Of a DNA stretch of 64,000 bases, positions 36,356-48,588 are shown piece by piece (within the stretch, counting starts at the first letter, position 1; the number at the start of each line of letters is the position of its first letter). Below the pieces are notes generated by a model. The model was given only the letters and a program-made list of their open reading frames with translations. It had not been told where the DNA came from and did no database searches. Source of the stretch: Thermoplasmata archaeon (GTDB taxonomy: Archaea; Thermoplasmatota; Thermoplasmata; Lutacidiplasmatales; UBA184); the NCBI GenBank assembly GCA_028864975.1, contig JAGWLG010000010.1, forward strand, positions 17,350 to 81,349, written 5' to 3'. The position numbers and the translations under genes are program-made.

Positions 36356-36457
36356 GGTTCTCACACAAGAGGTATACTTATCAACGGTCCCGACCCGGAA
36401 GGCCCCCGCGGCGAACCCCGCTTTAAAAAGGAGCTCCACCTTGCGGGTCCCTCGGGT

Positions 36458-37471
36458 ATGAGCCCACCGACCACCGGCCCCATCTGTCCGTCGTGCGGTG
36501 GGCTCAACAAGCCTTCCGCCAAGTTCTGCCGAAGCTGCGGGAAGCCGCTCGGCACGGCGGGCACCGCCACGCCGTCTCCCCCGAACGCGGGCCCGGCCCC
36601 TTCCCCCGCTCCCCTCACCATCGGGGCCTCGGCCCCCACTTCGGCGCCACGTCCCGCCCCTCTTCCGCGCGCTGACGACATGGAGAGCCGGTCGCGGATC
36701 GTGGAGGAGCGAGAGCTCGGGCTCCAACGCTTGCGCGAGGACCTCGACCGCCGAGCTTCGGAGTTGAGTGCGCGAAACGAGGAGCTGGAGCGCACCCGGG
36801 CTTCGCTCGAGACCCGCGAAAGGTCCCTCGCTCCCGCCGAGGCCAAGATCACCCAGCGGACCCAGGAGCTCGACCAACGGGAAGCGGCGCTCGAAGCGAG
36901 GGCCGCTTCGCAGCGGACCCAGGAGGAAGAGCTCTCGGGGAAGGAGAAGCAGCTCGCGGAAGGACAGCAGGGGATGGAGACGCGCGAGAAGGAACTGCGC
37001 ACTCAGCTCCAGGACCTCGAGCAGCAGAAGGGGCTGCTTCGTCGCCAGGCCAAGATGCTCGACCAACGGGAGGCCGACCTTCGGAGGAGGGAGCTCGCGG
37101 CCGCCTCGGCCGAGCCCGAGTCCCTAGGCGCCGGAGCTTCATCGCCCTCGGTCCCGCCACCGTCCCCTCCGGTCCGCACCGAGGCCCCCGTCGCCCCGCC
37201 CTCCCCCGCGGGTCCCGTTCCAATCGTACCCGTGGGCGTGGGCGCGAGTGCGGGTGGGAGTGCGCCCCCCACGCCGCCTCCACCGCCTCCGGCCCAAGCG
37301 CCCCTTCCCCCGCCCCACGCCCCGGGGGGCCCACCCGCCTATCCGCCCCCTCCCCCCACGAGTTCCGAGGAGCGGCCGCTCTTCTGCCAGGAGTGTGGCT
37401 CACCGAACCGACGGAGGCACCGGTTCTGCCACAAGTGCGGCGCCAAGCTTCCGGTGCAGAGCGCCCCCTAG
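36458..37471 (+). CDS. Zinc ribbon - long coiled coil - Pro-rich - zinc ribbon protein
   Basis: CPSC..FCRSC N-terminus, E/R/L heptad repeats, FCQEC..FCHKC C-terminus. TTTAAAAA TATA at 36422-36429. Confidence 0.8.
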   Translation: MSPPTTGPICPSCGGLNKPSAKFCRSCGKPLGTAGTATPSPPNAGPAPSPAPLTIGASAPTSAPRPAPLPRADDMESRSRIVEERELGLQRLREDLDRRASELSARNEELERTRASLETRERSLAPAEAKITQRTQELDQREAALEARAASQRTQEEELSGKEKQLAEGQQGMETREKELRTQLQDLEQQKGLLRRQAKMLDQREADLRRRELAAASAEPESLGAGASSPSVPPPSPPVRTEAPVAPPSPAGPVPIVPVGVGASAGGSAPPTPPPPPPAQAPLPPPHAPGGPPAYPPPPPTSSEERPLFCQECGSPNRRRHRFCHKCGAKLPVQSAP

Positions 37472-37654: not shown

Positions 37655-38191
37655 TCAGGCCGCCGAGGTGGCGCTGTAGCCTTCCTCCGCCGGGGCCGAG
37701 GGCGCGGCGAGCCAGAGTGCGAGCGCGCCAAGGAGCGCGAGCGTCCCTCCGACCATGGCCAGGTAGAAGCCCACGCCCGCGCTGTCGAGGAAGAGCGCCC
37801 CCCATAGCGACCGGGCCCCCGTGTTGAACCGGAACGCCGCGACGAGCGGCAGGGCGAAGACGCCCAGCGCGACCAAGGTGGCGGCGAGCTTCGGGAGGGT
37901 CTCGTGGGCGCGTCCCGTTCCCCAGACCCGAGGACGGACCAGGGCGGCGGCCAGGATGACGAGGCCAATGGCCCCTGCGGCGAGAACGGCGAGCTCGGGG
38001 AGGTGGCCCATGAGGTCGACCCCATTGAGCCCGCGGACCGGTCCCAGGGCGCTGAAGGTGTACCACGGCAGCACGAGGGCGAGGAGGACCAGCAGGCCAC
38101 CCGCCGCGAGAAGGAAACAGGGGAACCGCGACGGCGAGGCCTCGCGGTGGAAGAGGACCTCCTCGTCCCACGGCGCCCGGCCCGCGCTCAT
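37655..38191 (-). CDS. Four-TM membrane protein (claudin/tetraspan-like topology)
   Basis: LVLPWY after TM1 and AGVGFYL before TM4. Translationally coupled to the 1515-aa gene. Confidence 0.72.
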   Translation of the reverse strand: MSAGRAPWDEEVLFHREASPSRFPCFLLAAGGLLVLLALVLPWYTFSALGPVRGLNGVDLMGHLPELAVLAAGAIGLVILAAALVRPRVWGTGRAHETLPKLAATLVALGVFALPLVAAFRFNTGARSLWGALFLDSAGVGFYLAMVGGTLALLGALALWLAAPSAPAEEGYSATSAA

Positions 38192-41100
38192 GCGTCCTCC
38201 GCGGGGCTCGAGGCGTCCTCGCCCTTGATCTCAGGACCCGCAGCGGGACCCGAGCCCTCCGGCTCCACGGTCGAGGACGGGGAGGGTCGCGTGGGGGCGG
38301 ACGACGCGGCGGGGGCCGTGGACGGTCGGTCCGTGTCCGCCGCCCCATCCGCGTCGTCCCCTGCGGTGGGGAGAGACCCCCCGCGGGCGCCCTGCGTCCT
38401 ATCGGACCCCCTACCGCGCGGGGAGGGCTCCCTTCCCCTCCGGTGGAGCACCATCGCGAGCAGACCCATCGCCAGGATCGCCACGAGCCCGGCGAGGAGG
38501 GCGATCGGCGCCAGGCTCGCGTTGTCGATGCTCACCGTCTGCGAGAAGCTGCGGCTCTCTCCGAGCGAGTTCACTGCCGTGACGGTGACCAGGTGGTGCC
38601 CGTTGGGATACTGCGCGGTGTTGAGGCTCATCGACGCGGTGACCGGCGTGCCGCTCGCCGGGGCGAGCTCCATCGCGACCTGGGGGCCGCCATCGATCTG
38701 GAACCAGGCCGCCTGGAGGCCAGCAGGGTCGCTCAAGGTGACCGTGTAGGTCACGGTGCCGCTGAGGACCGGCACGCCCGGCTCCGCGAAGGCGGCGACC
38801 GTGCCGCTAAGGTCGATCTCGAAGGTGACGCTCGCCACCGCTTCGCGGTTCCCGGCGAGGTCCGTCCCGTAGTAGTAGACCGTGGTCGCCCCGGTGGTGG
38901 TGTACGTCAAGGGCGTCAGGTAAACGTGCCACGGGCCGTTCGCAGAAGCATTGCTGTAGAGGATCGTGTCGACCCCGCTGCCACCGTTGTCCGTCGCCGA
39001 GAGCGAGAGCGCGACCGGCGTTGCGTACCATCCGGAGGCCGTGAGGTTCCCCGAGAGCGAGGCCGCGGTCACCGGCGGGGTCGAGTCGATGCGGACCGTC
39101 TGCGACTCGACGGGCTCGACAAGCCCCGAGCCGCTCACCGAGTAGAACCGCAGGGCGTGCACGCCGTCGCCCGCGACGAGGAGGGCACTCCCCCGCGTCC
39201 AGTTCGAACCGTCCAGGCTCCAGTAGGTGGAAGCGATGCCGCTTGGTCCCCCCTTGGCCGTCAGGGTGACCGGGACGCTGGAGGCCGTGTACCACCCTCC
39301 TTGCACGTTGGAGGTCGTCAACGGGACCACGGCATCGACCTCGATCGTAACCGTCGAGCTCGGTCCTTGGACCCCGGAGTTCGAGACGGCGTAGGCGCTC
39401 AAGAGCGTCGAACCCAGGGCGGAGATCGAGAACGGTCCCGTGTAGATGGTCGGAGCGCCCGAGCCGACCTGGTCGACGATCTCACGCACGCCGCTCGGAC
39501 CGGGGCTCGCCGAGAGCGAGACCGTGACCGGCCCGGTATACCACCCAGAGGTCCCGAGGGGGCCGGTGAGGACGATGGCCACAGACGGGGCGACCGGGTC
39601 CACGATCGTCGAGGCCTCTGACCCGGGGAACGTCCCGCGGTTGCCCGCGAGGTCCTGCCCCACGGCCGCGAACTCGTACGTACCGGCCCCGGGGGCGCTG
39701 AACGTGAACGGGCTGGCCGTGATGAGGGTGGTCGACGCGAGCGACCAGGTGGTCCCCGAGCTGTTGGACCAGTAGATCCAGACCCCGGCGACGCCGCTCC
39801 CTCCAGGGTCGCTCGCGGACCACGGGACGGGGAAGGACATCGCGGTCTCGAACGCGGGCAATGGCAGGACCGTGGCGCGCGGCGGCTGGGTGTCGACCAT
39901 GAAGCGCTCCGAGCTCGACCAGCCCGCCGTACCGCCGGAGGCCGAGACGGCCTCGACACGCCAGTACCAGTTCCCGTCCGTCAGGACCACGCCGAGCGAG
40001 GTGCCCGCGAGGCCGCCGTAGGTCTGGGTCCCGGGGCCGAAGGTCGCGCTGGAGGAGACCTGCGCCGTGTAGGACGCGTTCGCGTTCGCCACCGGAGACC
40101 AGACGAGGGTCGCCCCGCTCGAGTTGACGAAGCTTCCCGTGAGCGGGGAAACCGGGGTCGGGACCGCGAGGGCCCAGACGTTGAAGGGGACGCTCGGGGC
40201 CACGTTGGGAGGGATCGCCTGGTCATAGGCCCCGAGCTGCTGCACGCCGGGGGTCGAGGGCACGGTGAAGGCGACCGCTCCCCAGCCCTGCGCGTTCGTG
40301 CCGACGGTGGTCCCGAACAGCGGCAGGCCGTTCCACGAGAGGGTGACCGCGTTGGAGGCCGCGAAGCCCGCGAGCAGGACCGACACCGAGTTCCCCTCGT
40401 AGGTCGAGGTCGTCGTCGGGAAGATCTTCGGGGTCTCCGTGAACGCGACGGAGTTGGGGACGTTCCCGAGGCTGTCGTACCCGCTGATCGCGTGCGCTCC
40501 GGCGGGCGCCGCCGGGACCGTGAAGGCGATGACCACCGTGCCCAGCACGTTCGTCATCTGTTGGATGCCGGTGGGTCCACCGTCCCAGGTGACCTGGACG
40601 TAGGAGAGGGCGCCCATGCCCTGGTAGGTGAGCGTGTCCACCGACAGGAACGGACCGCTGGTGGCCGACTCGGAGAGCGAGGGCTCGACCGTGAAGTTCG
40701 CGAGCGCGCTGTGGGCGGCGCTGTCGTTCGCCCAGACCGGGTAGGGGCCGGCCGCGCGCGTGGGGACCGTGAACGTGGTGGCGAAGACCCCCGTCGCGTT
40801 GGCACTCGCCGTGGCGAGCGCGGTGGCGATCCCCTTCCAGAAGATCGAGACGGTGGCGCTAGGACCAAAGTTGAACCCCAGCGCGGTAACGGTCGAGTTG
40901 ACCACGCCGGCGTTGGGCACGAGGAGGAGCACCGGGCCCACGAGGAAGAAAGCCGGGGCCACCACCCCGTTGGCGTCGAGCGCGACCACGGGGTGGACAC
41001 CGCGGTATGCCCCGACCGGGACCGTCCACGTGCCGAAGGCGGCCGGGAGGACCGCGCCCGTCGCGTTCGAAGTGATCCCGGCCCCGAACCCGAAGATGGT

Positions 41101-42735
41101 CCGCTGCGTCGCGAGACCGTAGTCCCAGAGGAGGGCGACCCCGGCGTTCGCGCTCAGCCCTTCCGCGTAGGTGATCAGGACCGTGCTCCCCGCGGCTCCG
41201 GCGAAGGGGCGCAGGGTGAGCGAGGCCTCGATGGTGAAGGTGGCTCCGGCGGAGGGACCCGTCGCCGGGGTGAAGGTCACGGTGTGGCCCCCGTTCCACG
41301 CCGGGGGGGCGCCGTTGGAGAAGGAGAACCCGCCCCGGGTGTTGGTGGCCCCGGTGGCGAGGGTGTGCTGGTCCCCGAGCCCGAAATCCCAGTAGACCGT
41401 GATCGCCGAGGAGCCCGCGAAGCCGGTCCCCACCCCCGAGAAGGCCGTTCCCACCGGGCCGCTCGCCGGGGCGAGGAGGACCTGGGGGACGATCTGGAAG
41501 TTGTCGGTGGCACCGTGGCCGGCGACGTCGAGGCCCTCGACGGTGTGCGAGCCCGCCGTGTCCGCGGGGATCGTGACCCCGACCACGAAGCTCCCGGCGG
41601 GGTCCGTGGTCCCGCTCGCCAGGAGCGCCCGGTTCGGTCCCGTGGGGGACCAGATCACCTGGTAGGAGGTCAAGGGCGAGAACCCGTCGCCCGCTACGGT
41701 CGCGGTGCTGCCCACGAACCCCGAGCCCGGCGAGATCGACACCGACGCGGCGAGCGCGAAGGGGGCGGAGGCGGTGTCACCGGCATCGTCCGTCATCTGG
41801 ACGATGTAGATGCCGGCCGGGTCCGCGGGGACGTTGAACCCGCAGTTGATCCCGCCGTTGCCGCTCAGGCCCGAGCCCGTGCAGCTGTCGCCGGGTAGAC
41901 CTCCGGCCCCGTTCCACGTGAGCGAGACGATGTTCCCGCCGTTGTCATAGCCCGTTCCGACGACGGTGATCCCCTGGCCGACGTTCCCGGTCGCAGGGAA
42001 CAGCTGGAGGTCGGTCACGGTGATGAAGGTCGCGGTCGCGGTGTAGCCGTTGTTGTCGCGCAGGGTGACGAAGTGGTTCCCCGCCACGCTCGAGGGGACC
42101 GTGAACGAGCAGGTGACGTTCCCCTGGGCGTCGATCCCGGCACCGTTGCAGCTGCTGCCCCCAAGGGGGCCGCCCGACCCGTCCCAGGAGATCCGGTTGA
42201 TGGTCCCGCCGGTGCTCCAGCCGGTCCCCGTGACGCTGACCACGGTGTTCACCGGGCCCGAGGAGGGGCTCATTGCGAACGTGGGGCTGACCGTGAAGGA
42301 CGCGGTCGCGGTGTTTACCCCCTGGACCACGGCGACGTTGGCCGTTCCCGCGTTGCCCCACCACAGGTCGATCGTGACGTCGAGGTTGCCCCCGGCGGAG
42401 GTCGTGCAGCTCCCTGCGAGCGCTCCGGGGCCTCCCGCCTGGCAGAAGAGGAGGATCTGGCCCCCGGCGAACGTGATGGTGCCAGTGACGGCGGCGGTCG
42501 CGCCCCATCCCCCGCCGGTGATGCGCAGCGGGGTCCCCACGGTGGCCGTGGTCGGGTTCACGGAGATAGAGGCCGCCGGTAGCGCGTGTGCGCCGGGAAC
42601 CAACATCATGAGCATCAGCCCCACGACCAGGAAGGCGACGCGAACGGTCGGGCGACGGAGCCGCGGGGCGAGGGCCCCCACAGGCGAGTTCGGCGCAACC
42701 CCGGCGGCCCTGCACTCAGCTACCTCTGCTTGCAT
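38188..42735 (-). CDS. Large multi-Ig/IPT-repeat surface protein with C-terminal TM anchor
   Basis: Signal peptide, about 8 repeats of P.SG.VG..VTV.G.GF...F.VP....G.H.V, FN3/Ig-like modules (GSGV...D.AGN.E), TM LAPIALLAGLVAILAMGLLAMVL. AAGGAGG RBS. Confidence 0.88.
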   Translation of the reverse strand: MQAEVAECRAAGVAPNSPVGALAPRLRRPTVRVAFLVVGLMLMMLVPGAHALPAASISVNPTTATVGTPLRITGGGWGATAAVTGTITFAGGQILLFCQAGGPGALAGSCTTSAGGNLDVTIDLWWGNAGTANVAVVQGVNTATASFTVSPTFAMSPSSGPVNTVVSVTGTGWSTGGTINRISWDGSGGPLGGSSCNGAGIDAQGNVTCSFTVPSSVAGNHFVTLRDNNGYTATATFITVTDLQLFPATGNVGQGITVVGTGYDNGGNIVSLTWNGAGGLPGDSCTGSGLSGNGGINCGFNVPADPAGIYIVQMTDDAGDTASAPFALAASVSISPGSGFVGSTATVAGDGFSPLTSYQVIWSPTGPNRALLASGTTDPAGSFVVGVTIPADTAGSHTVEGLDVAGHGATDNFQIVPQVLLAPASGPVGTAFSGVGTGFAGSSAITVYWDFGLGDQHTLATGATNTRGGFSFSNGAPPAWNGGHTVTFTPATGPSAGATFTIEASLTLRPFAGAAGSTVLITYAEGLSANAGVALLWDYGLATQRTIFGFGAGITSNATGAVLPAAFGTWTVPVGAYRGVHPVVALDANGVVAPAFFLVGPVLLLVPNAGVVNSTVTALGFNFGPSATVSIFWKGIATALATASANATGVFATTFTVPTRAAGPYPVWANDSAAHSALANFTVEPSLSESATSGPFLSVDTLTYQGMGALSYVQVTWDGGPTGIQQMTNVLGTVVIAFTVPAAPAGAHAISGYDSLGNVPNSVAFTETPKIFPTTTSTYEGNSVSVLLAGFAASNAVTLSWNGLPLFGTTVGTNAQGWGAVAFTVPSTPGVQQLGAYDQAIPPNVAPSVPFNVWALAVPTPVSPLTGSFVNSSGATLVWSPVANANASYTAQVSSSATFGPGTQTYGGLAGTSLGVVLTDGNWYWRVEAVSASGGTAGWSSSERFMVDTQPPRATVLPLPAFETAMSFPVPWSASDPGGSGVAGVWIYWSNSSGTTWSLASTTLITASPFTFSAPGAGTYEFAAVGQDLAGNRGTFPGSEASTIVDPVAPSVAIVLTGPLGTSGWYTGPVTVSLSASPGPSGVREIVDQVGSGAPTIYTGPFSISALGSTLLSAYAVSNSGVQGPSSTVTIEVDAVVPLTTSNVQGGWYTASSVPVTLTAKGGPSGIASTYWSLDGSNWTRGSALLVAGDGVHALRFYSVSGSGLVEPVESQTVRIDSTPPVTAASLSGNLTASGWYATPVALSLSATDNGGSGVDTILYSNASANGPWHVYLTPLTYTTTGATTVYYYGTDLAGNREAVASVTFEIDLSGTVAAFAEPGVPVLSGTVTYTVTLSDPAGLQAAWFQIDGGPQVAMELAPASGTPVTASMSLNTAQYPNGHHLVTVTAVNSLGESRSFSQTVSIDNASLAPIALLAGLVAILAMGLLAMVLHRRGREPSPRGRGSDRTQGARGGSLPTAGDDADGAADTDRPSTAPAASSAPTRPSPSSTVEPEGSGPAAGPEIKGEDASSPAEDA

Positions 42736-42967
42736 GCGATGTCCTCCTTCGGATGGCGAAGGAGCATGATCCGGGACCCCGGGGCTCCCGAGGGGAAGGA
42801 CGCCCCGCCAGCGTCACGGCTGCGAGGGGCGGGTCGCGGGGCCGGTGGAGGGAAGGCGCTCCGTCCGACGGTCCTCCCCAAGACCCGCTCAAGATGCCGC
42901 GTTGGACCCTCGGCGGGCCTCGGACGTACCATCGAACGACCACTACCCTGTCCGGAGGAGACATCCT

Positions 42968-42987
42968 TTTTGGCGCAAGGCCCGAAC
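42968..42987 (-). promoter_or_regulatory. Conserved motif copy A (GTTCGG-N8-CCAAAA)
   Basis: Plus-strand TTTTGGCGCAAGGCCCGAAC, near-identical to the copies at 44277 and 45232. Confidence 0.65.
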
Positions 42988-43080
42988 CGCGGCACCGACG
43001 CGCGTTCCGTCGATCCCGAGGGCAGACGGCCGACGCGGAGGGCGACACCCTCCGAGACCGTCCGCGCGAGGGGCCACGCA

Positions 43081-44235
43081 TCAGGTCGAGCATCGCGGGC
43101 AGGAGAGCACCCTCACTCCGGTGAGCGCCGAGGGGATCAGGGAGCTTCCACATCGTCGGCAAGCGGGAAAGGCGGGTCGAGCGCCGCCCCTTCCCATCTT
43201 CACCGAGGAGGACGCGAGCGCGTCCTTCGACGGCGTGGCCCGCGCTCGGACCGCGACCGTACCCAGGACGACCGCGAGCAGCGCGGCGGCCGCGATCGTC
43301 CCCAGGACCGGGGGCGAGAGGACCCAAGCCGGCACCAGCGCCCTCGGGAAGTGTAGGGTGCTAAGGGCCACCGTGGGATCGTAGGAGAGCGAAGCATAAC
43401 CGCCAGGGGCTCCGACGAAGAGCAGGTCGACGGACGAACTCTGGTCGTCGCTCGAGCCCTGGACGGAGCTCACGACGGAGACGGAAGCGCCAGCGCCGCC
43501 AGGGTAGCTGACCGAGGCCGTCGGTCCCCAGGTCAGACTAGCGATCGGCGAGCCCGAGCCGCCCCCCGACTCCTCGACGTCCTCCCCCGAGCTTCCGGAG
43601 GTGAGGTTCGTCGCTTGGGCCGCGCGGGCACCGAGCACCAATCCCAGGCTGTCCGAGGGATCCTGCCACGGCCAGCCCGAGGCCTGGACGTCGAACTTCA
43701 CCCTCCAGTCGGAGCTGCCGCCGCTGTTCGAGAGATGGAAGGTCAAGGCGACGTCGATCGGGGTGGAGTTCCCGTAGACGTAGTCGAGAGGCTCCGAGGT
43801 GTTCCAGGTCCCCGTCGCGGGAGAGGCGCTCGGCGTGCCCGTGAGCTGCACAAGGACTCCTGAGGAGGTGGTCGACCAGGAGAGGTTCCAGCCGGGATCA
43901 CCGTCTCCCAAGGGGGCGTACGCCACAACCTCCCCTGACGGCGCGACCTCGGCGAGACCCACAGCAGAGGCGCTGAAGTTCACCCGGCCATCCTGCACAG
44001 AAGAGACCCAGAACGTGGGGGTCTCTCCGGCGAACTGGAGCCGGACCTCTCCGTTCGTCCAGGTGAAAGGTGCAGGGTGCGGGTCCTCCGACGGCGCGCC
44101 CGGCGTGTCGGCACGGGCGGAGGAGGCCCCCAGGGTGAGGAGCAGGAGGGCGGCTACGAAGGTCGCGAGGAGGGTGGGGAGAGCTCGGCCCCGGAAGGCG
44201 GCGGTCCGGCGAGAGAGGAAGGTCGAGTCGTTCAC
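43081..44235 (-). CDS. Secreted beta-sandwich protein with C-terminal TM and cytoplasmic CxxC-CxxC
   Basis: Signal peptide ending ARA, VKFDVQASGWPW and YDP motifs, TM, then CRRC...CPRC. GTG start chosen 41 nt after motif B. Confidence 0.75.
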   Translation of the reverse strand: MNDSTFLSRRTAAFRGRALPTLLATFVAALLLLTLGASSARADTPGAPSEDPHPAPFTWTNGEVRLQFAGETPTFWVSSVQDGRVNFSASAVGLAEVAPSGEVVAYAPLGDGDPGWNLSWSTTSSGVLVQLTGTPSASPATGTWNTSEPLDYVYGNSTPIDVALTFHLSNSGGSSDWRVKFDVQASGWPWQDPSDSLGLVLGARAAQATNLTSGSSGEDVEESGGGSGSPIASLTWGPTASVSYPGGAGASVSVVSSVQGSSDDQSSSVDLLFVGAPGGYASLSYDPTVALSTLHFPRALVPAWVLSPPVLGTIAAAALLAVVLGTVAVRARATPSKDALASSSVKMGRGGARPAFPACRRCGSSLIPSALTGVRVLSCPRCST

Positions 44236-44276
44236 GGTCGTTCCTGACCGGTCTAGTTCGGCCAGATGGTCAAGCG

Positions 44277-44308
44277 TTTTGGCGCAGGGTCCGAACTGGC
44301 TGGTGCAA
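44277..44308 (-). promoter_or_regulatory. Conserved motif copy B (TTGCACCA-N4-GTTCGG-N4-TGCGCCAAAA)
   Basis: 27/32 identical to copy C when both are read in gene-sense orientation. Confidence 0.7.
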
Positions 44309-44350
44309 GCTCTGGAGGGGGACGGCTCCCGGACACCGACCGCCATGGGT

Positions 44351-44875
44351 TCATTCCCTCAGGAGGCCGACGAAGGCCTCCAGGAACCGGTCCACGAGGC
44401 GATCATCGAAGCTCTCGCGGTAGGACCGGAGGAGCCCCTGCACACGGGCGGGGGAGGTCGGGCGGTAGCGGCGCGACTCGCCCTCCAGGTAGCTCTCGAC
44501 GACCCCTCGCTCGATCATGTGGCGGAGATGGAAGGAGACCGTGGACCGGCTGAGCCCCACCCGGGAGGGGAGCTCCGCGAACGTGAGCCCCGGGGATGCG
44601 AGCATCTCGACGAGCAGCACGCGTTCGGCTGGGCTGCGGAGGAAGAGGAGGATCTTTCGGTCCTCCCACGTCATCTCCTGGGGGAAGTAGCGGTCGCGTC
44701 CGCCCGCCCGCTCGCGGCGTAGCGCGCCGCCGCGCGTGAGCTGGTCCAAGTGGTACGCGGTCTGCCCCCAGCCCAGATGGAGCGCTCGTTGCAGCTCTCG
44801 CGCGCTGATCCCGGGGTTCGCGCGCACCGCTTCGAAGATGCGGCGACGGGTGCCTTGCTGGAGGAGCTCATCCAT
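44351..44875 (-). CDS. Tandem (double) winged-HTH transcriptional regulator
   Basis: Two ArsR-like repeats: RRRIFEAVRANPGISAREL...YHLDQL and LLVEMLASPGLTFAEL...STVSFHLRHM. Confidence 0.88.
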   Translation of the reverse strand: MDELLQQGTRRRIFEAVRANPGISARELQRALHLGWGQTAYHLDQLTRGGALRRERAGGRDRYFPQEMTWEDRKILLFLRSPAERVLLVEMLASPGLTFAELPSRVGLSRSTVSFHLRHMIERGVVESYLEGESRRYRPTSPARVQGLLRSYRESFDDRLVDRFLEAFVGLLRE

Positions 44876-45167
44876 GCCCGGGGACCGTGGCGGTGGGCCT
44901 CCGTCGGACCACGGAGAGGTAAAGCAGGCCCGCGGCCGCCACGAGGATCATGAGCGGGAGCGAGGCGACCTGAAGACGCGCGCCGTAGAGGGGCGAGACC
45001 TCACCCACCAACGCGGCCACCCCGACCGCAGCGAGGAGGGTGAACGAGCCGGCAATGAAGTAGAGCCGCCGCTCCTCGTACCGTTTCGCCGCGAGGACGG
45101 CGATGAGGGCGAGAGTTCCCGCGAGACCCGCCAGAAGGACCGCCAAGAAGACCGAGATGAGGTCCAC
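44868..45167 (-). CDS. Small three-TM membrane protein coupled to the wHTH regulator
   Basis: Three hydrophobic helices with an AKRYEERRL loop. Its stop overlaps the HTH start. Confidence 0.72.
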   Translation of the reverse strand: MDLISVFLAVLLAGLAGTLALIAVLAAKRYEERRLYFIAGSFTLLAAVGVAALVGEVSPLYGARLQVASLPLMILVAAAGLLYLSVVRRRPTATVPGHG

Positions 45168-45219
45168 GGCGTCTGCACGGACCTGTTGGCTATGAGGGCT
45201 CGGTGTGGGCGGCTGGGGG

Positions 45220-45251
45220 TTGCACCACACCGTTCGGAGCCTGCACCAAAA
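45220..45251 (+). promoter_or_regulatory. Conserved motif copy C (TTGCACCA-N4-GTTCGG-N4-TGCACCAAAA)
   Basis: Lies in the divergent intergenic region, 45 nt before the ATG at 45297. Confidence 0.7.
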
Positions 45252-45296
45252 GCCTAGTCCCCTTCGTGGCGCCTCGAGGGTCCAGAGGTCGACAAC

Positions 45297-45545
45297 ATGG
45301 GCGCACTACCCTTGGTGCTGCTGGCCGTGATCGGGGCGACCGCCCTGGTCGCGCCGGCCGTCGTGCACCTCCCGGCGTTTTCCCATCCGGCCTCCGGTAG
45401 CGGAGCTTCCGGGTGTCCATCGGACACCCAGCCGAGCCCGGGGGACGGATCGGACGGACCCGGAGAGAACGAGAGCGAGATGGAGTACGAGAACGAGTCG
45501 AGCGACGATGGCTCCGATGGCGGCTCGGGCTCCTGCGGCTCGTGA
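45297..45545 (+). CDS. Small secreted/anchored acidic low-complexity protein
   Basis: Hydrophobic N-terminus and a D/E/S/G-rich body (ENESEMEYENESSDD) bracketed by two Cys. GAGGT RBS. Confidence 0.6.
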   Translation: MGALPLVLLAVIGATALVAPAVVHLPAFSHPASGSGASGCPSDTQPSPGDGSDGPGENESEMEYENESSDDGSDGGSGSCGS

Positions 45546-45550
45546 GCACG

Positions 45551-47407
45551 ATGAGCGGACCTAGCGGTCAACGGCACCGTCCGCCGACCGGAAGCAGGGA
45601 CCCCCGCGCCTCGAGGGCGGGCGGGGTCCCTGAACCCTTTCCCACCCCCGCGCGAGGACTCGCGAAGGCGAAGGAGGCGGGTCGCGGGAACTTCGCTTCG
45701 TCCCTGCCGCACCCACCGATCGCGCTCCTCCCCGGCTCCTTGCCGCGGCCCACATCGCCCGTTCCCTCGCCCATCCGAGGGCCGCGCCCTCGCCATCACA
45801 CTGCGTCTGGCCTTCGTGTTCCCATCCTGTTCCTTTCCGCGTGCCTGGTCTCGATGGTCCCGGGGTCGGTCGCCCATCCGACGATCGCCGGTGCCGCGAG
45901 CTGGACCCAGTTCCATGGCGACGCCGCGCTCACCGGCACGACGACGACCGGCGCCCCCGGTGGGACGACGCTCTACAGTGTCGACCTGACGCGCGACCTC
46001 GGGGCCGGCGTCGCGGACCCGCTCGGGAACGACTTCCCCTACCAAGCCTCCCCCGTCACGGACGGCACCAGCGTGTACGTCGCGCTCAACAACGCCGTGG
46101 TGTCCGTTTCCGCTGCCAGCGGGAGCTTCGAGTGGCTGCGCGGGATGCCGGGCGGCAGCGGCAATGGTCCGGTCGTCGGGACCCCGCTGCTCGACAACGG
46201 GATGCTCTATCTCGACCAGGATGGCGGCCCAAACGAGCTCGCCGCCCTCTACCCGGGGAACGGCACGATCGCCTGGACCCTCACGTCGCCGAGCGGAGGC
46301 AACCCCTCCGCTTCCTCCGTCGTCGAGGAAGGGGGTATGCTCGTCCTGGCGGACACCTCGGGTGGGTTCTTCTGGCACCCTCCCTCTTCCACCGGCCTCT
46401 GGGGGGCTCCGGCGGTCCCCGGAGTGGCCGAGTATTTCGCGACGCCGAGCTTCACGGTCGTGAACGGGCAGGGTGCGGCGTGGGTACTGCCGGACCGTGG
46501 GAACCGTTCCCTCGACGCCTGGAGCCTGAGCGGGGTGCCCCTTCCAGGGTTCCCGGTCGCGACGGGACAGTCCCTGGACCGGCTCTTCTCGTCAGCGGCC
46601 CTCGTGAACCTGACCGCGCCGAGCGGTGCGGTCTCCACATGGGCCATCTTCGGAGGGGAGGGTGGGACAGGCGCCGCGAGCCACCTCTACGCGGTCGACG
46701 TTTCGTCGCCCCAGGGCGTGCTGGCGCTCACGGTTCCCGCCCTCGGGAGCGGCGACGCGGGGGTCCGTTCGACCCCGGCGGTCGTCGCTTCCGGCGCCAC
46801 TGCTTCGATCTACTTCGGGAGCCGTGCGGGGACCGTCTCCTCGGTCGAGCTCGATCCTTTCGCCGCCACGCCGCGGGCCCAATGGACCTGGGTCTGGAAC
46901 GCGTCGACCGGCGGGCCCGTCGAGGCCTCTCCCGTCGTCGTTGGAGGCGAGGTGATCGCCCCGTCCGAGGACGGCAACGTCTACGGGCTCGCGCTCGGAA
47001 CGGGCGTCCAGCTCTGGAGGGTGGGGACCGGCGCGCCGATCTACGCGAGCCCGGCCCTCGCCGGCGGGGTCGCCTGGGTCGTGAACGCCAACGGCCTGCT
47101 CACCGCGATCGGCGGTGTGGGCCCCTCGTCTCCCCCCGGTGGCTCCCCGGGGCCTTCCCCGACCTCGGACAACTCGCTTGCCTCGATGGCCCCCTGGCTG
47201 ATCGCGGCGGTCGCGGTGGCCGCTCTCGCGCTGTTCCTGATCGTGGGCTACGTACGGCGTCGCCGCCGGCCGCACGTCGGCGCTTCCGCCTCCTCAGGGA
47301 GCCCTTCCCCCGCGATGCCCCCCGCTCCCCCGCCTCCTCCACCTCCACCCCCTCCGGCTCAGAGAGCAACCACTAAGGTCGCGGCCGCCTGGACGGGAGG
47401 ACGTTGA
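45551..47407 (+). CDS. PQQ-like (BamB-type) beta-propeller surface protein with C-terminal TM
   Basis: WTQFHGD, repeated ASP.V...VY...G..W blades, TM followed by RRRRR and a poly-Pro tail. Start uncertain. Confidence 0.85.
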   Translation: MSGPSGQRHRPPTGSRDPRASRAGGVPEPFPTPARGLAKAKEAGRGNFASSLPHPPIALLPGSLPRPTSPVPSPIRGPRPRHHTASGLRVPILFLSACLVSMVPGSVAHPTIAGAASWTQFHGDAALTGTTTTGAPGGTTLYSVDLTRDLGAGVADPLGNDFPYQASPVTDGTSVYVALNNAVVSVSAASGSFEWLRGMPGGSGNGPVVGTPLLDNGMLYLDQDGGPNELAALYPGNGTIAWTLTSPSGGNPSASSVVEEGGMLVLADTSGGFFWHPPSSTGLWGAPAVPGVAEYFATPSFTVVNGQGAAWVLPDRGNRSLDAWSLSGVPLPGFPVATGQSLDRLFSSAALVNLTAPSGAVSTWAIFGGEGGTGAASHLYAVDVSSPQGVLALTVPALGSGDAGVRSTPAVVASGATASIYFGSRAGTVSSVELDPFAATPRAQWTWVWNASTGGPVEASPVVVGGEVIAPSEDGNVYGLALGTGVQLWRVGTGAPIYASPALAGGVAWVVNANGLLTAIGGVGPSSPPGGSPGPSPTSDNSLASMAPWLIAAVAVAALALFLIVGYVRRRRRPHVGASASSGSPSPAMPPAPPPPPPPPPPAQRATTKVAAAWTGGR

Positions 47408-47934
47408 CCGTTCCGAGTTCCTCCACCCCCGCGCCTTCCGGTCCCGCTCCAGCGCTGCCACGTGCGGCGAGCCTGACCTCGTTTCTGGGCACGACACGGA
47501 CCCTGACGTGGGTGTGGGTCCTCCTCGCGGGGCTGGTGGCCTTGATCGATCTCTTGGAGATCCTCCTGACCATCTTCGCCCTTCGGTTCCCCCTGGGGGG
47601 ATTGGAAGGGCTCGCCTATGCTGTGATCTGGGGCGTCGTCGACCTGTTCATCCTGGCGAGGATCGGCGGCTGGAGGAGCGAACTGGAGCGCGGCAGGTAC
47701 GCGGCCCTCCAGGAGCCCTTCCTGCTGTGGGGGATCCTCGGGACGATCTTCGGGATCCTTCCGGGGCTGCTCCTTCTGGTCGCCTACGTCCGCGTGCTTC
47801 CGTGGTCCGATGAACCCGCGGGCTCGGCGGGGGCGTCCTCCGCGTCGCCGTCGGCGACGAACCCCCCTCCTCCACCCTACGGGGTCTCTCCTTCCGCCCC
47901 CGGCGGTGCTGCCACGAAAGCCGGGGAGAACTGA
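47404..47934 (+). CDS. Membrane protein of unknown function
   Basis: Three to four hydrophobic segments, WGILGTIFGILPGLLLLVAY. Overlaps the upstream stop. Confidence 0.7.
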   Translation: MTVPSSSTPAPSGPAPALPRAASLTSFLGTTRTLTWVWVLLAGLVALIDLLEILLTIFALRFPLGGLEGLAYAVIWGVVDLFILARIGGWRSELERGRYAALQEPFLLWGILGTIFGILPGLLLLVAYVRVLPWSDEPAGSAGASSASPSATNPPPPPYGVSPSAPGGAATKAGEN

Positions 47935-47949
47935 CCCGGAGGGGGGACG

Positions 47950-48588
47950 ATGGTCTTCGAGAAGTTCGAGAACTGGAACTTCGAGGCACCGGCGCCGGCC
48001 GAGGTCTTCCCTCAGGCCTGGAACTTCTGGTCCCAGCGAGGCTACCAGCTCCAGTCGACGGGGCCCACGTCCTTCCGAGGCCGCTCCTTCCAGTCGAAGC
48101 TCGGCATTCACCGTGTCGCCGACCTCACCATCGCGAGCTCGGGGAGCGGGACGAGCGTACAGGTCCACTTCCGCGCCGACGTGCGGGCGGACGTGGCCGC
48201 CGGCGGCGTGGTCGTGGCGGTGCTGCTCCTGCCCGTGGCGGTGGTCGGTGCGGCCATCTCCTGGCACGAGTACGAGAAGGACTGGTCCCAGGAGCGCTCC
48301 GCCTTCTGGGACTTTCTGGTCCATGCCGCGGGGGCTCGGCCGGCGGCCGGGATGGTGCCGCCGCCACCCCCCTCCTCACCGCTCTTCGCTTCCTCGCCGT
48401 CCGCCCCTGCGCCTCCGCCGAGTGTAGCGGGGCCACCTGCGAGCACCCCTGTTTCCGCGGGTGTCCCAGCTCCCTCTCCGGTTCCGAGCGTCACTCCCCC
48501 CGTCCGGTCATGTCCCGCGTGCGGAGCGCCCGCATCGGGAGAAGGAAAGTTCTGCGCGAGCTGCGCCGCCCCGATGGTCCGGGCGTGA
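47950..48588 (+). CDS. Membrane-associated protein with C-terminal zinc ribbon
   Basis: Hydrophobic hairpin, Pro-rich linker, CPAC...FCASC. GGAGG RBS. Confidence 0.78.
   Translation: MVFEKFENWNFEAPAPAEVFPQAWNFWSQRGYQLQSTGPTSFRGRSFQSKLGIHRVADLTIASSGSGTSVQVHFRADVRADVAAGGVVVAVLLLPVAVVGAAISWHEYEKDWSQERSAFWDFLVHAAGARPAAGMVPPPPPSSPLFASSPSAPAPPPSVAGPPASTPVSAGVPAPSPVPSVTPPVRSCPACGAPASGEGKFCASCAAPMVRA

What the first reader, a model, noticed from the sequence alone, without database searches (positions are those of the whole stretch)
42968..45545. Candidate undescribed envelope regulon: three-TM protein + double-wHTH regulator with a shared motif before three surface-protein units
Seen in sequence: GTTCGG-N8-CCAAAA occurs three times within 2.3 kb (42968-42987 minus, 44277-44296 minus, 45232-45251 plus), each time oriented with the downstream gene. 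Copies B and C extend to 32 bp at 27/32 identity and contain a TGC(A/G)CCA direct repeat spaced 21 bp (two helical turns). They end 41 and 45 nt before start codons. The CCAAAA end sits where a BRE is expected, followed only by poor TATA-like sequence. The downstream units are the 1515-aa Ig-repeat protein with its 4-TM partner, the secreted beta-sandwich protein, and the acidic peptide/PQQ-propeller string. A coupled small membrane protein and tandem wHTH gene pair lies between them. Established: archaeal activators often bind just upstream of the BRE at weak promoters. Inference: the double wHTH reads this motif and activates surface genes, the membrane protein acts as sensor or anti-activator (functionally like ECF/anti-sigma), and site C may also autoregulate the pair.
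Basis: partly seen in the sequence, partly recalled or inferred. Interest (0 to 1): 0.85.

Follow-up and report, generated by a model that had tools for sequence, protein, structure and literature searches.

The report
Conserved operator of archaeal surface regulon
A repeated 21-base DNA signal sits in front of the gene sets that surround a small membrane protein and a two-headed DNA-binding protein, and the same layout is kept in dozens of related uncultured archaea, so it is very probably the switch through which that protein controls a few cell-surface genes.

Summary
GTTCGG-N8-CCAAAA occurs three times in the window (0 expected). It occurs nowhere else in the 3.6-Mb genome.

Each copy is the promoter-proximal unit of a 21-bp tandem direct repeat, [GTTCGG-N4-TGCRCCAA-N3]x2. 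Its A-tract lies where a BRE is expected, a few bases before a weak TATA-like box.

The layout is a strong phylogenetic footprint. In 51 Thermoplasmata loci that encode a relative of the regulator:
- 45 carry the element.
- 36 have it just after the regulator gene, facing a conserved membrane-anchored beta-sandwich protein.
- 18 have it divergent from the membrane-protein gene.

This is about 100-fold denser than the genome background.

Relatives also carry unlinked copies before PKD, PQQ-propeller, glycosyltransferase and small-peptide genes.

The adjacent protein is a single-chain double wHTH (PF24266 plus an ArsR-type domain). It is translationally coupled to an unannotated 3-TM protein.

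Binding by this protein is inferred, not shown. Whether it activates or represses, and what the membrane protein does, remain open. Site A lies 232 nt from the 1515-aa gene and is not conserved.

Verdict: a real, undescribed local regulon. It is a new variant of a known kind.

The parts
44277..44317 (-). Operator B. Two 21-bp units: distal 44317-44297 with TTGCACCA, proximal 44296-44277 GTTCGGACCCTGCGCCAAAA. A weak TATA-like position follows at about 44273-44266. It faces the beta-sandwich membrane-protein gene.
   Evidence: The equivalent site is found 12-134 nt after the regulator's stop in 36 of 51 related loci.
45211..45251 (+). Operator C. Distal unit 45211-45231 with TTGCACCA, proximal unit 45232-45251 GTTCGGAGCCTGCACCAAAA. 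A weak TATA-like position follows at about 45255-45262. It faces pep82 and the PQQ-propeller gene and is shared with the divergent membrane-protein/regulator promoter.
   Evidence: An equivalent divergent site is present in 18 of 51 related loci.
42968..42987 (-). Site A. Proximal unit only (GTTCGGGCCTTGCGCCAAAA); the upstream unit is degenerate. It lies 232 nt before ATG 42735 of the 1515-aa ORF.
   Evidence: No counterpart was found before a homologue of the 1515-aa gene in the 14 relatives' loci searched with it.
45191..45195 (-). TATA-like box (CATAG on the minus strand) of the membrane-protein/regulator operon, about 23 nt before GTG 45167. Relatives have AAATA, ATATA, ACTTA or AATTA at the same place.
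   Evidence: read by eye in 17 related loci plus the window; not a statistical test.
44868..45167 (-). Small 3-TM membrane protein (99 aa, GTG start). Its stop overlaps the regulator's ATG by 8 nt (ATGGATGA).
   Evidence: tblastn finds it directly upstream of the regulator in 38 of 51 loci. No Pfam or NCBIfam family. Weak likeness to DUF7471 and DUF7521.
44351..44875 (-). Single-chain double wHTH regulator (174 aa). PF24266 N-domain at residues 9-75, an ArsR/MarR-type wHTH at residues 85-140, and two C-terminal helices.
   Evidence: 77.2 bits, cut-off 31. (NF033788 58.3 bits, cut-off 55). Model pLDDT 90.8.
43081..44235 (-). Conserved first target. It has a signal peptide, an all-beta ectodomain of about 270 aa (motifs GWPW, DSLG, GGYxxLxYDP), a C-terminal TM helix and, here, a cytoplasmic CxxC...CxxC tail.
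   Evidence: Found by tblastn in 41 of 51 loci. No Pfam family.
45297..45545 (+). 82-aa peptide with an N-terminal hydrophobic segment and an acidic Gly/Ser-rich tail. It is the first gene after operator C.
   Evidence: A 36%-identical homologue sits behind its own copy of the operator in one same-genus genome. Similar small peptides follow unlinked sites.
45551..47407 (+). PQQ-like beta-propeller protein (618 aa from ATG 45551). It starts 5 nt after the pep82 stop.
   Evidence: PF13360, 56.9 bits. It is the divergent neighbour of the pair in 8 of 14 and 8 of 51 related loci.
47404..48588 (+). Two further membrane-protein genes on the same strand: 176 aa (47404-47934) and 212 aa with a C-terminal zinc ribbon (47950-48588). 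They are probably in the same transcription unit.
   Evidence: Homologues follow the PQQ gene in same-genus loci. The operon status is inferred.
37655..42735 (-). 1515-aa surface protein (38188-42735) and its overlapping 178-aa 4-TM partner (37655-38191). This is a possible third unit behind site A.
   Evidence: OmpL47-type beta-barrel domains. The link to site A is inferred only.

Best explanation
The three motif copies are operator-promoter modules of a small regulon that, in this genome, is confined to one locus.

Each full module is a tandem direct repeat of a 21-bp unit, GTTCGG-N4-TGCRCCAA-N3. The A-tract of the promoter-proximal unit occupies the BRE position, 3-4 nt before a TATA-like box. 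The start codon follows 32-54 nt after the motif, so the mRNAs are leaderless or have short leaders.

The most likely binder is the adjacent single-chain double-wHTH protein (inferred). In this model one chain binds per 21-bp unit. Its two winged helices sit in successive major grooves, because the half-site centres are about 10.5 bp apart, and two chains bind head to tail.

From that position it would control three units:
- the beta-sandwich membrane protein;
- the pep82/PQQ-propeller string;
- probably its own divergent operon.

Site A may add the 1515-aa surface protein.

I favour activation by recruiting TFB/TBP to weak core promoters, at about 55:45 over repression.

The translationally coupled 3-TM protein is proposed to set the activity of the regulator from the membrane (inferred, about 50%).

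The confidence given is for the core claim: a functional operator-promoter that is read by the adjacent regulator.
For: Shown:
- Rarity. There are 3 copies against 0 expected in the window. They are the only 3 in 3.61 Mb.
- Linkage to the regulator. In 51 loci found with a regulator alignment, the element (3 or fewer mismatches, plus CCAAA) lies within 250 nt after the regulator's stop on the same strand in 36. It lies upstream and divergent in 18, and both in 17.
- Enrichment. 45 of 51 loci hold at least one copy. That is 72 hits in 401,722 bases, against 9 in the 3,613,232 bases of this genome, of which 6 lie outside the locus and all have 3 mismatches.
- Conservation not forced by the search. 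Among 70 non-redundant proximal sites, the unit 21 nt upstream reads G 59, C 58, A/G 65, C 56, C 60, A 57 of 70. Downstream there is A at +24 in 39 of 70, T at +27 in 46 of 70 and C at +32 in 52 of 70.
- Fixed spacing. 21 of 33 loci with the element before the beta-sandwich gene have an in-frame start codon 32-36 nt after the motif. The other 12 have one at about 38-54 nt.
- Co-occurrence. The strict pattern gives 41 hits against 1 control hit in the 14 same-family genomes with an orthologue (E of 1e-49 or lower). It gives 0 hits in the 4 genomes with no homologue better than 6e-4.
- Regulator architecture. Two wHTH domains in one chain.
- Helix and half-site conservation. The first recognition helix (GWGETAYHL) and the TGCRCCAA half-site are both nearly invariant. 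The second helix and the GTTCGG half-site both vary, as TTACGG, TTCGAG and GTTTCG.
- Paralogues. The two paralogous pairs in this genome carry a conserved block with TTGCWCCA before a TATA-like box upstream of their own operon.
- Shared operator. The divergent site lies between two core promoters, with the nearest half-site about 45 nt before the membrane-protein start.

For activation, by my reading: the whole operator lies upstream of the TATA position. The TATA-like boxes here (TAGTCC, TTGACC, ATGTCT) are much poorer than those I read before tRNA genes of the same genome.
Against: - No binding, expression or start-site data exist. The binder is inferred from linkage alone.
- In a sister family of the same order, three genomes keep a perfect tandem operator with a TTATATA box before a 401-aa signal-peptide/TM protein. 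No regulator gene is nearby there. The regulator homologues of those genomes (33-37% identical) have a different first recognition helix and no operator beside them. So another protein could read the element, or the link is looser than it looks.
- 6 of 51 related loci have no copy.
- Several second copies of the regulator within one genome share the same operator type, so specificity is not one-to-one.
- The helix and half-site covariation follows phylogeny and was not tested with independent contrasts.
- Against activation: the ArsR/SmtB relatives named in the PDB matches are mostly repressors. The proximal unit overlaps the BRE position. One genus has good TATA boxes (ATATA, TTAAT) at these promoters.
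- Site A has one unit only and is 232 nt from the ORF.
Confidence: 0.68

Rival explanations
1. Same operator and same binder, but the double wHTH is an autorepressor. It occludes the BRE of the target promoters. A signal makes the 3-TM partner capture or inactivate it at the membrane, which de-represses the surface genes. This is the logic of SdpR and SdpI in Bacillus subtilis.
For: - Both wHTH domains are ArsR/SmtB/MarR-like. The named PDB relatives are mostly repressors.
- There is a weak match of the N-domain to the SdpR autorepressor model (25.5 bits).
- The proximal unit runs into the BRE position.
- The regulator and a small membrane protein are one translationally coupled operon.
- Promoters of one genus have good TATA boxes.
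Against: - The operator lies wholly upstream of the TATA position, at about -37 to -78 by my estimate. This is the usual place of archaeal activators as I recall them.
- At the divergent membrane-protein promoter the nearest half-site is about 45 nt upstream of the start, a poor place for repression.
- The core promoters in this genus are weak.
- The SdpR match is far below its cut-off of 100 bits.
Confidence: 0.3
2. The element is a real promoter element, but something else reads it: an unlinked transcription factor, or an alternative TFB that recognises an extended BRE. The membrane-protein/regulator pair is then only one more member of that regulon.
For: - In the sister family the operator persists with no regulator gene nearby. 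The homologues there have a different first recognition helix.
- Unlinked copies exist in relatives.
- No binding data exist.
Against: - Tight physical linkage to the regulator gene across genera, on one or both sides, in 45 of 51 loci.
- Genomes with no homologue better than 6e-4 have no copy, 0 of 4.
- A bipartite 21-bp unit repeated in tandem suits a two-wHTH chain and is not explained by a BRE alone.
- Paralogous pairs keep TTGCWCCA before their own operon.
Confidence: 0.2
3. The copies are recombination or mobile-element sequences. They would be inverted repeats that flank an invertible or transposable two-gene cassette, not regulatory sites.
For: B and C are inverted with respect to each other and bracket exactly the membrane-protein/regulator pair.
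Against: - The order and orientation PQQ(-), membrane protein(+), regulator(+), beta-sandwich(+) is the same in every locus that has these genes. No inverted form was seen.
- Contigs of 4 DNA runs from 2 studies are colinear with the window, with no joints. One contig spans 43969-45700 and so covers both B and C.
- The distance to start codons is fixed.
- I looked for no recombinase gene, so its absence is not claimed.
Confidence: 0.02

Closest known systems
SdpR/SdpI of Bacillus subtilis: an ArsR-family autorepressor held at the membrane by a multi-pass membrane protein of the same operon. The mechanism is recalled from Ellermeier et al. 2006, which I did not see. For PMC2910880 I saw the search listing and the start of the abstract only.
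   Same: An ArsR-type wHTH regulator and a small multi-pass membrane protein are encoded together. The locus looks autoregulated, and the targets are envelope-related.
   Different: - The regulator here is a fused double wHTH. Its match to the SdpR model is 25.5 bits against a cut-off of 100.
- The 3-TM protein matches no SdpI or other family.
- The gene order is reversed.
- This is an archaeal BRE/TATA promoter with the operator upstream of TATA.
- No toxin gene is evident.
Archaeal activators that bind an upstream element abutting the BRE: Ptr2, GvpE with its divergent PA/PD promoters, TFB-RF1 and EarA. All are recalled; no paper was read.
   Same: Repeated sites lie directly upstream of or touching the BRE. 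The core promoter elements are weak. One operator is shared by two divergent promoters.
   Different: The protein family differs: Ptr2 is Lrp-like and GvpE is bZIP-like. The operator here is a head-to-tail 21-bp repeat with two unlike half-sites. Activation is not shown here.
Iteron-binding plasmid initiators (RepE, RepA, pi): two winged-helix domains in one chain, with monomers bound to direct repeats of about 19-22 bp. Recalled.
   Same: One chain carries two winged helices, and the DNA target is a direct, not palindromic, repeat of about 21 bp with two unlike halves.
   Different: No Rep protein appears among the listed Foldseek matches. There is no sequence relation. The sites sit in promoters and not at an origin. 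The binding mode is inferred.
ECF sigma / anti-sigma pairs
   Same: A transcription factor is co-encoded with a small membrane protein next to envelope genes that it is thought to control.
   Different: Archaea have no sigma factors. The regulator has no sigma domains among its 20 Pfam matches. The membrane protein has no anti-sigma domain.
Small membrane protein plus wHTH gene pairs of archaea (DUF7521 and DUF7471 proteins). One example is HVO_B0192/HVO_B0193 of Haloferax volcanii, which a preprint mentions as a strongly regulated pair (10.1101/2025.11.10.687552, passages read with find).
   Same: A protein of about 100 aa with 3-4 TM segments lies beside an ArsR-type regulator. This genome has two DUF7521 plus single-wHTH pairs, one of them at 26.8 bits just under the 27-bit cut-off. 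It also has three pairs of the present type.
   Different: - The membrane protein here is below the Pfam cut-offs of those families.
- The regulator is the double-wHTH PF24266 type.
- I found no function, operator or regulon in print for any of these pairs.

Membership tests
Pfam PF24266 (HTH_HVO_0163_N) double-wHTH proteins | The N-terminal domain scores above the family's gathering cut-off. | tested here: met
   77.2 bits against a cut-off of 31, residues 9-75. The family also rings in M. jannaschii, H. volcanii and M. acetivorans.
Pfam PF24266 (HTH_HVO_0163_N) double-wHTH proteins | A second wHTH follows in the same chain. | tested here: met
   HTH_24, MarR_2 and HTH_5 match residues 85-136. 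The model (pLDDT 90.8) shows two helix-helix-helix-wing units and two C-terminal helices.
ArsR/SmtB metalloregulators | A wHTH matching the family model over its cut-off. | tested here: met
   NF033788 58.3 bits against a cut-off of 55. A profile search of the PDB gives ArsR/SmtB/HlyU chains, best E 4e-8.
ArsR/SmtB metalloregulators | A single-wHTH chain of about 100-120 aa that forms a homodimer on a palindromic operator. | tested here: not met
   The 174-aa chain has two wHTH domains. The operator is a direct repeat.
ArsR/SmtB metalloregulators | Metal-binding ligand sets (alpha3N or alpha5 sites). | not tested
   I did not map ligand residues.
SdpR/SdpI signalling pair | The regulator matches the SdpR-family model over its cut-off. 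| tested here: not met
   NF033789 25.5 bits against a cut-off of 100.
SdpR/SdpI signalling pair | The membrane partner belongs to the SdpI family. | tested here: not met
   No Pfam or NCBIfam family for the 3-TM protein at E of 0.01 or lower. Homologues are named only as hypothetical proteins.
SdpR/SdpI signalling pair | Signal-dependent sequestration of the regulator at the membrane. | not testable with these tools
   This needs localisation or interaction experiments.
ECF sigma / anti-sigma | Sigma-70 region 2 and region 4 domains in the regulator. | tested here: not met
   None among the 20 Pfam families matched.
Iteron-binding Rep initiators (WH1-WH2) | Fold match of the two-domain chain to RepE, RepA or pi. 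| tested here: not met
   The listed Foldseek matches are ScpB, DIP2311, SelB, RPC62 and ArsR/SmtB chains. No Rep initiator appears. The two-domain TM-scores are about 0.3.
Archaeal BRE/TATA promoter with an upstream operator | An A-rich BRE-like tract directly 5' of a TATA-like box, about 25-30 nt before the transcription start. | tested here: inconclusive
   The positions fit if transcripts start at or near the start codons. There is A at +24 and T at +27 after the motif start, and start codons lie 32-36 nt after the motif in 21 of 33 loci. No start site was mapped.
DUF7521 / DUF7471 small archaeal membrane proteins | A score above the Pfam gathering cut-off. | tested here: inconclusive
   The window's protein has no match. 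Of the 31 aligned family members, 10 touch DUF7471 (best E 0.0013) and 5 touch DUF7521 (best E 0.0012). The Atlas feature score to DUF7521 clusters is 0.94.

The most novel reading that the evidence does not exclude
Small 3-4-TM proteins paired with ArsR-type wHTH regulators may be a widespread, undescribed archaeal way of carrying a signal across the membrane in one step. It would play the part that ECF sigma/anti-sigma or SdpI/SdpR pairs play in bacteria. This locus is its first readable example. A single-chain double wHTH would read iteron-like 21-bp direct repeats fused to the BRE. Under control of its membrane partner, it would switch on a set of surface glycoproteins, PQQ propellers, PKD proteins and small secreted peptides.
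Probability: 0.3. Interest if true: 0.75.

Novelty: new variant of a known kind. Interest (0 to 1): 0.55.

Why it matters
Almost nothing is known about gene regulation in the uncultured soil and mine-drainage Thermoplasmata. Little is known about how archaea couple envelope signals to transcription without sigma factors.

This locus supplies four things that can be tested at once:
- a defined 42-bp operator;
- a candidate binder from an uncharacterised Pfam family (PF24266);
- a co-conserved membrane partner;
- a short list of target genes.

The operator gives a clear structural prediction: two unlike half-sites one helical turn apart, repeated head to tail. If the membrane partner does control the regulator, the many similar gene pairs in archaea become candidates for the same mechanism. 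This genome alone has five such pairs.

If it does not, the result is still a clean, ordinary local regulon.

Tried and rejected
- Complex prediction of the regulator with the 3-TM protein (alignments of 51 and 31 rows). The verdict was 'no answer', with scores 0.00 and 0.00 against a mark of 0.32, and the controls were not run. This is no evidence either way.
- Expression and start sites. No RNA holder was listed for 42700-45700. The 8 rows are all DNA contigs from 2 studies, so start sites could not be mapped.
- Inversion. Contigs of 4 runs laid on 42700-45700 show no joints. Contigs cannot exclude rare variants.
- Rfam on 42500-45700. The only match is a chance-level miRNA hit (E 0.82), so no known RNA element lies in the 232-nt gap after site A.
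- The sigma-70 promoter and terminator scan does not suit an archaeon and gave nothing useful.
- Fold of the beta-sandwich protein. The model is good (pLDDT 82), but the matches are weak. The best is the GLMP luminal domain at E 1e-4 with TM 0.36-0.43. Beta-sandwich domains of GH38 mannosidases and LacZ follow. I name no function from this. The Atlas gave only unnamed archaeal clusters, all at 0.84 or lower.
- The 401-aa protein behind the sister-family operator. I could not show that it is homologous to the beta-sandwich protein. It is 17% identical in the alignment and gives no tblastn hit.
- A 71-codon ORF starts 36 nt after site A. I judged it non-coding. It is Arg/Pro-rich and is not among the high-GC3 frames.
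- Literature.
  - 'HVO_0163' gave 1 paper, an acetylome study, seen as a listing only.
  - 'tandem winged helix' + archaea + transcription gave 19 papers. The 15 listed titles concern Pol I/III, SMC and helicases.
  - DUF7521 / DUF7471 / PF24266 / PF24365 / PF24283 gave 3 records of one preprint, of which I read passages.
  - 'Lutacidiplasmatales' gave 17 papers, seen as listings.
  - Supplements were not consulted and may hold expression tables that bear on homologues.

Full report
**Observation.** The pattern GTTCGG-N8-CCAAAA occurs three times in the window. The copies are at 42968-42987 (-), 44277-44296 (-) and 45232-45251 (+). None of 100 dinucleotide-preserving shuffles gave a match.

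The window lies in a 3.61-Mb assembly of 124 contigs with 67% G+C. In that assembly these are the only three copies. The 10-mer TGC[AG]CCAAAA also occurs only at these three places. Looser forms give the same three.

Copies B and C match at 27 of 32 positions. Each carries TGCACCA 21 nt upstream of TGC(G/A)CCA. They end 41 and 45 nt before GTG 44235 and ATG 45297.

Copy A differs in two ways. Its upstream unit is degenerate. The first possible start of the 1515-aa ORF (ATG 42735, behind a GGAGG) is 232 nt away.

**Genes.** I used codon-position G+C to pick real frames. The minus strand carries, in order of transcription:
- a 99-aa protein with three hydrophobic segments (44868-45167, GTG start);
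- a 174-aa regulator (44351-44875), whose ATG overlaps the stop of the first gene by 8 nt;
- operator B;
- a 384-aa protein with a signal peptide, an all-beta ectodomain, a C-terminal TM helix and a CxxC...CxxC tail (43081-44235);
- site A;
- the 1515-aa protein (38188-42735);
- an overlapping 178-aa 4-TM protein (37655-38191).

On the plus strand, operator C is followed by four genes:
- an 82-aa peptide (45297-45545);
- a PQQ-like beta-propeller protein (45551-47407), which starts 5 nt after the peptide's stop;
- two more membrane proteins (47404-47934 and 47950-48588).

These readings rest.

The regulator matches PF24266 (HTH_HVO_0163_N, 77.2 bits, cut-off 31) at residues 9-75. It matches ArsR/MarR-type wHTH models at residues 85-140. 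It passes the NCBIfam ArsR/SmtB model (58.3 bits against 55). Its AlphaFold model (pLDDT 90.8) shows two winged helices and two C-terminal helices. The 3-TM protein and the 384-aa protein match no Pfam or NCBIfam family.

**Anatomy of the element.** Across related loci the element is a tandem direct repeat of a 21-bp unit, GTTCGG-N4-TGCRCCAA-N3. Some loci have three units.

I collected 70 non-redundant promoter-proximal units and looked at the columns that the search did not force.
- The unit 21 nt upstream reads G 59, C 58, A or G 65, C 56, C 60, A 57 and A 43 of 70.
- Downstream there is A at +24 (39 of 70), T at +27 (46 of 70) and C at +32 (52 of 70).
- This is a TATA-like box that begins 3-4 nt after CCAAAA.
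- In one genus the box is good (ATATA, TTAAT). In this genus it is poor: TAGTCC, TTGACC and ATGTCT in the window.
- By my reading of the 70 nt before the tRNA genes of this genome, ordinary promoters there have clear A/T-rich boxes.

The centres of the two half-sites are about 10.5 bp apart and the units are 21 bp apart. All four half-sites therefore face one side of the helix. This follows from the sequence.

**Conservation.** A search of 41 related genomes with the regulator found a match in 36. Full-length orthologues (51-63% identical) were found in 14 same-family genomes.

In the 14 loci fetched around the orthologues:
- the beta-sandwich protein gene is present in 14 of 14;
- the 3-TM gene is present in 13 of 14;
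- a divergent PQQ-propeller gene is present in 8 of 14;
- the 1515-aa gene is present in 0 of 14;
- the element flanks the pair.

A second, wider set came from the search for related loci with the regulator alignment. It holds 51 loci, all titled Thermoplasmata or Thermoplasmatota MAGs, except one labelled only 'bacterium' and two (one MAG) titled Candidatus Lutacidiplasmatales. The two sets overlap and are not independent. In the 51 loci:
- the element lies within 250 nt after the regulator's stop, on the same strand, in 36;
- it lies upstream and divergent in 18;
- it does both in 17;
- 45 hold at least one copy;
- tblastn finds the regulator in 51, the beta-sandwich gene in 41, the 3-TM gene in 38 and the PQQ gene in 8.

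The density is 72 hits in 401,722 bases. This genome has 9 hits in 3,613,232 bases, of which 6 lie outside the locus and all have 3 mismatches. That is roughly a hundredfold enrichment.

**Co-occurrence.** A strict pattern (TTC-N7-GCNCCAAAA) was scanned in the same 41 genomes.
- The 14 same-family genomes with an orthologue have 41 hits against 1 hit of the reversed control pattern. 12 of the 14 have at least one hit.
- The 4 same-family genomes with no homologue better than E 6e-4 have none.
- The other 6 same-family genomes have homologues of E 2.8e-9 to 7.6e-39. Five of them have one hit each, and one of those hits lies 37 nt after that homologue.

Related genomes are not independent, so I give counts only.

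**Promoter geometry.** In 33 loci the element lies within 400 nt before the beta-sandwich gene. In 21 of these an in-frame start codon lies 32-36 nt after the motif. In the other 12 it lies at about 38-54 nt. In the window the figures are 41 and 45 nt.

With the TATA-like T seven bases after the motif, the box centre is about 27-30 nt before those start codons. This is what leaderless archaeal mRNAs show, as I recall. The A-tract of CCAAAA then falls at the BRE position, and the operator spans roughly -37 to -78. These numbers are inferred. Start sites could not be mapped here.

At the divergent site there is a second TATA-like box (AAATA, ATATA, ACTTA; CATAG in the window). It lies 22-27 nt before the start of the 3-TM gene and 13-17 nt from the distal unit. 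I read this by eye in 17 loci plus the window. One operator therefore sits between two core promoters.

**Regulon content.** In this genome the element is confined to the locus. The assembly is 89.6% complete. Relatives carry further full copies elsewhere. These lie before:
- PKD-repeat proteins of 831 and 860 aa;
- PQQ-propeller proteins of 635 and 1048 aa;
- a 591-aa family-2 glycosyltransferase;
- small hydrophobic-then-Gly/Ser-rich peptides like pep82;
- a homologue of the 176-aa membrane protein.

The 1515-aa protein carries OmpL47-type beta-barrel domains.

The ectodomain of the conserved 384-aa protein models well (pLDDT 82). It resembles only loosely the beta-sandwich domains of GLMP and GH38 enzymes. 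I assign no function to it.

**Who binds.** This step is inferred. Four observations point to the adjacent regulator.
- The linkage just described.
- Site architecture. A unit of two unlike half-sites one helical turn apart, repeated head to tail, suits a chain with two different winged helices. It does not suit a symmetric dimer.
- Matching conservation. The first recognition helix (GWGETAYHL) is nearly invariant in 51 sequences, and so is TGCRCCAA. The second helix varies (LS[KRN]STV, LSLSTT, LSRSSI, VSKSTL). The other half-site varies along with it (GTTCGG, TTACGG/TTGCGG, GTTTCG, TTCGAG). This follows the tree and was not tested with independent contrasts.
- Paralogues. The two paralogous 3-TM plus PF24266 pairs of this genome share only one conserved block upstream of their operon. 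It reads GAGAATTGCWCCA-N8-TTCATRAA, which again is TTGCNCCA before a TATA-like box. The two loci are duplicates of each other and count once. By my estimate, the chance of one TTGCNCCA in 300 bp is about 0.02.

**Evidence against the link.** In a sister family of the same order, three genomes keep a perfect tandem operator with a TTATATA box. There it precedes a 401-aa signal-peptide/TM protein, and no regulator gene is nearby.

The regulator homologues of those genomes are 33-37% identical and also follow a small 3-TM gene. They have a different first helix (GLAMGMLTYHL, GLEVGTLDYHL) and no operator beside them. Either they still read the element, or another protein does.

**Activator or repressor.** For activation:
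- the whole operator is upstream of the TATA position;
- the core elements in this genus are weak;
- at the divergent promoter the nearest half-site is about 45 nt upstream of the start.

For repression:
- the named ArsR/SmtB relatives are mostly repressors;
- the proximal unit overlaps the BRE position;
- one genus has good TATA boxes.

I put it at about 55:45 for activation.

**The membrane protein.** Three things are shown:
- translational coupling;
- co-conservation, in 38 of 51 loci by tblastn, in both paralogous pairs of this genome and in the four sister-family loci whose upstream frames I read;
- conserved residues, namely R30, R35, G50 and P72.

Its family holds only hypothetical proteins. 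It resembles DUF7471 and DUF7521 below their cut-offs.

This genome also has two DUF7521 genes, each overlapping a single-wHTH ArsR-type gene. One scores 49.6 bits and the other 26.8 bits, against a cut-off of 27. Small membrane protein plus wHTH is therefore a recurrent pairing here, with five pairs in all.

That the membrane protein controls the regulator is an inference from these facts and from the SdpI/SdpR precedent, which I recall.

**Comparison and novelty.** The system works like a local autoregulated transcription factor with a membrane partner. It is not a member of the SdpR/SdpI, ECF or Rep-initiator families by the tests I could run. It is a member of PF24266 and of the ArsR-type wHTH superfamily.

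I found nothing in print on the function, operator or regulon of PF24266 proteins or of their membrane partners. One preprint mentions a Haloferax transmembrane-protein/regulator pair as strongly regulated, without further study.

I rate the finding as a new variant of a known kind.

Noticed in passing
G000 contigs C8:17163-17980 and C84:3968-4784 (loci L108, L109): There are two paralogous 3-TM plus PF24266 double-wHTH pairs, with regulators 34-36% identical to the window's. Each lies beside an AbrB-like small protein, a CxxC protein and a convergent secreted protein of about 280 aa. The two loci share a conserved upstream block, GAGAATTGCWCCA...TTCATRAA.
   Followed up: partly
G000 contigs C64:27939-28723 and C59:49001-49719 (loci L106, L107): Two single-wHTH (HTH_20/ArsR) genes each overlap a DUF7521 small membrane-protein gene. 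One scores 49.6 bits and the other 26.8 bits, against a cut-off of 27. The gene order is regulator first, the reverse of the window's pair.
   Followed up: partly
L044 4019-4100 (G025), L045 3990-4090 (G027), L105 about 1610-1700 (G030): Sister-family genomes with 42-51% G+C keep a near-perfect tandem operator followed by TTATATA or a similar box. It precedes a 401-aa signal-peptide/TM protein, is not linked to any regulator homologue, and follows a deacetylase-like gene.
   Followed up: partly
window 43081-43200, 47950-48588, 33203-37066: Several surface proteins of this locus end in a TM helix followed by a cytoplasmic zinc-ribbon-like CxxC...CxxC tail. These are the 384-aa protein, the 212-aa protein and the 1287-aa PKD/Kelch protein. 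In the 384-aa family the tail is present only in some genera.
   Followed up: partly
window 42736-42967: A 232-nt stretch between site A and the 1515-aa ORF has no convincing ORF and no Rfam match. It is either a long 5' leader or a sign that site A is a relic of a promoter for a lost small gene. In one same-genus genome a third operator copy drives a pep82 homologue at the equivalent place.
   Followed up: partly
L034 4037/4098, L036 4032/4093 (same-genus genomes): At an unlinked locus, two full operators stand back to back about 60 bp apart. One drives a PKD-repeat protein of 831 aa and the other a small pep82-like peptide, divergently. This genome has no such second locus in the assembly.
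   Followed up: partly
L043 3433-3963 (G015): The homologue of the window's 176-aa membrane protein sits behind an unlinked operator copy. It weakly resembles the PspC/LiaF transmembrane region (22.3 bits, cut-off 27).
   Followed up: no
L052, L095, L056, L092, L094, L051, L057: In some related loci my coordinates for the 3-TM or beta-sandwich gene contain an internal stop (L052, L095). In others the 3-TM frame runs on for 200-290 codons without a stop. This may reflect assembly errors, pseudogenes or chance open frames in high-G+C DNA.
   Followed up: no
window 42700-45700: DNA contigs of 8 public runs from 2 studies, labelled mine drainage and soil metagenomes, hold 44-97% of the sampled words of this stretch. 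Four runs were laid and were colinear, with one base difference at 43963.
   Followed up: partly
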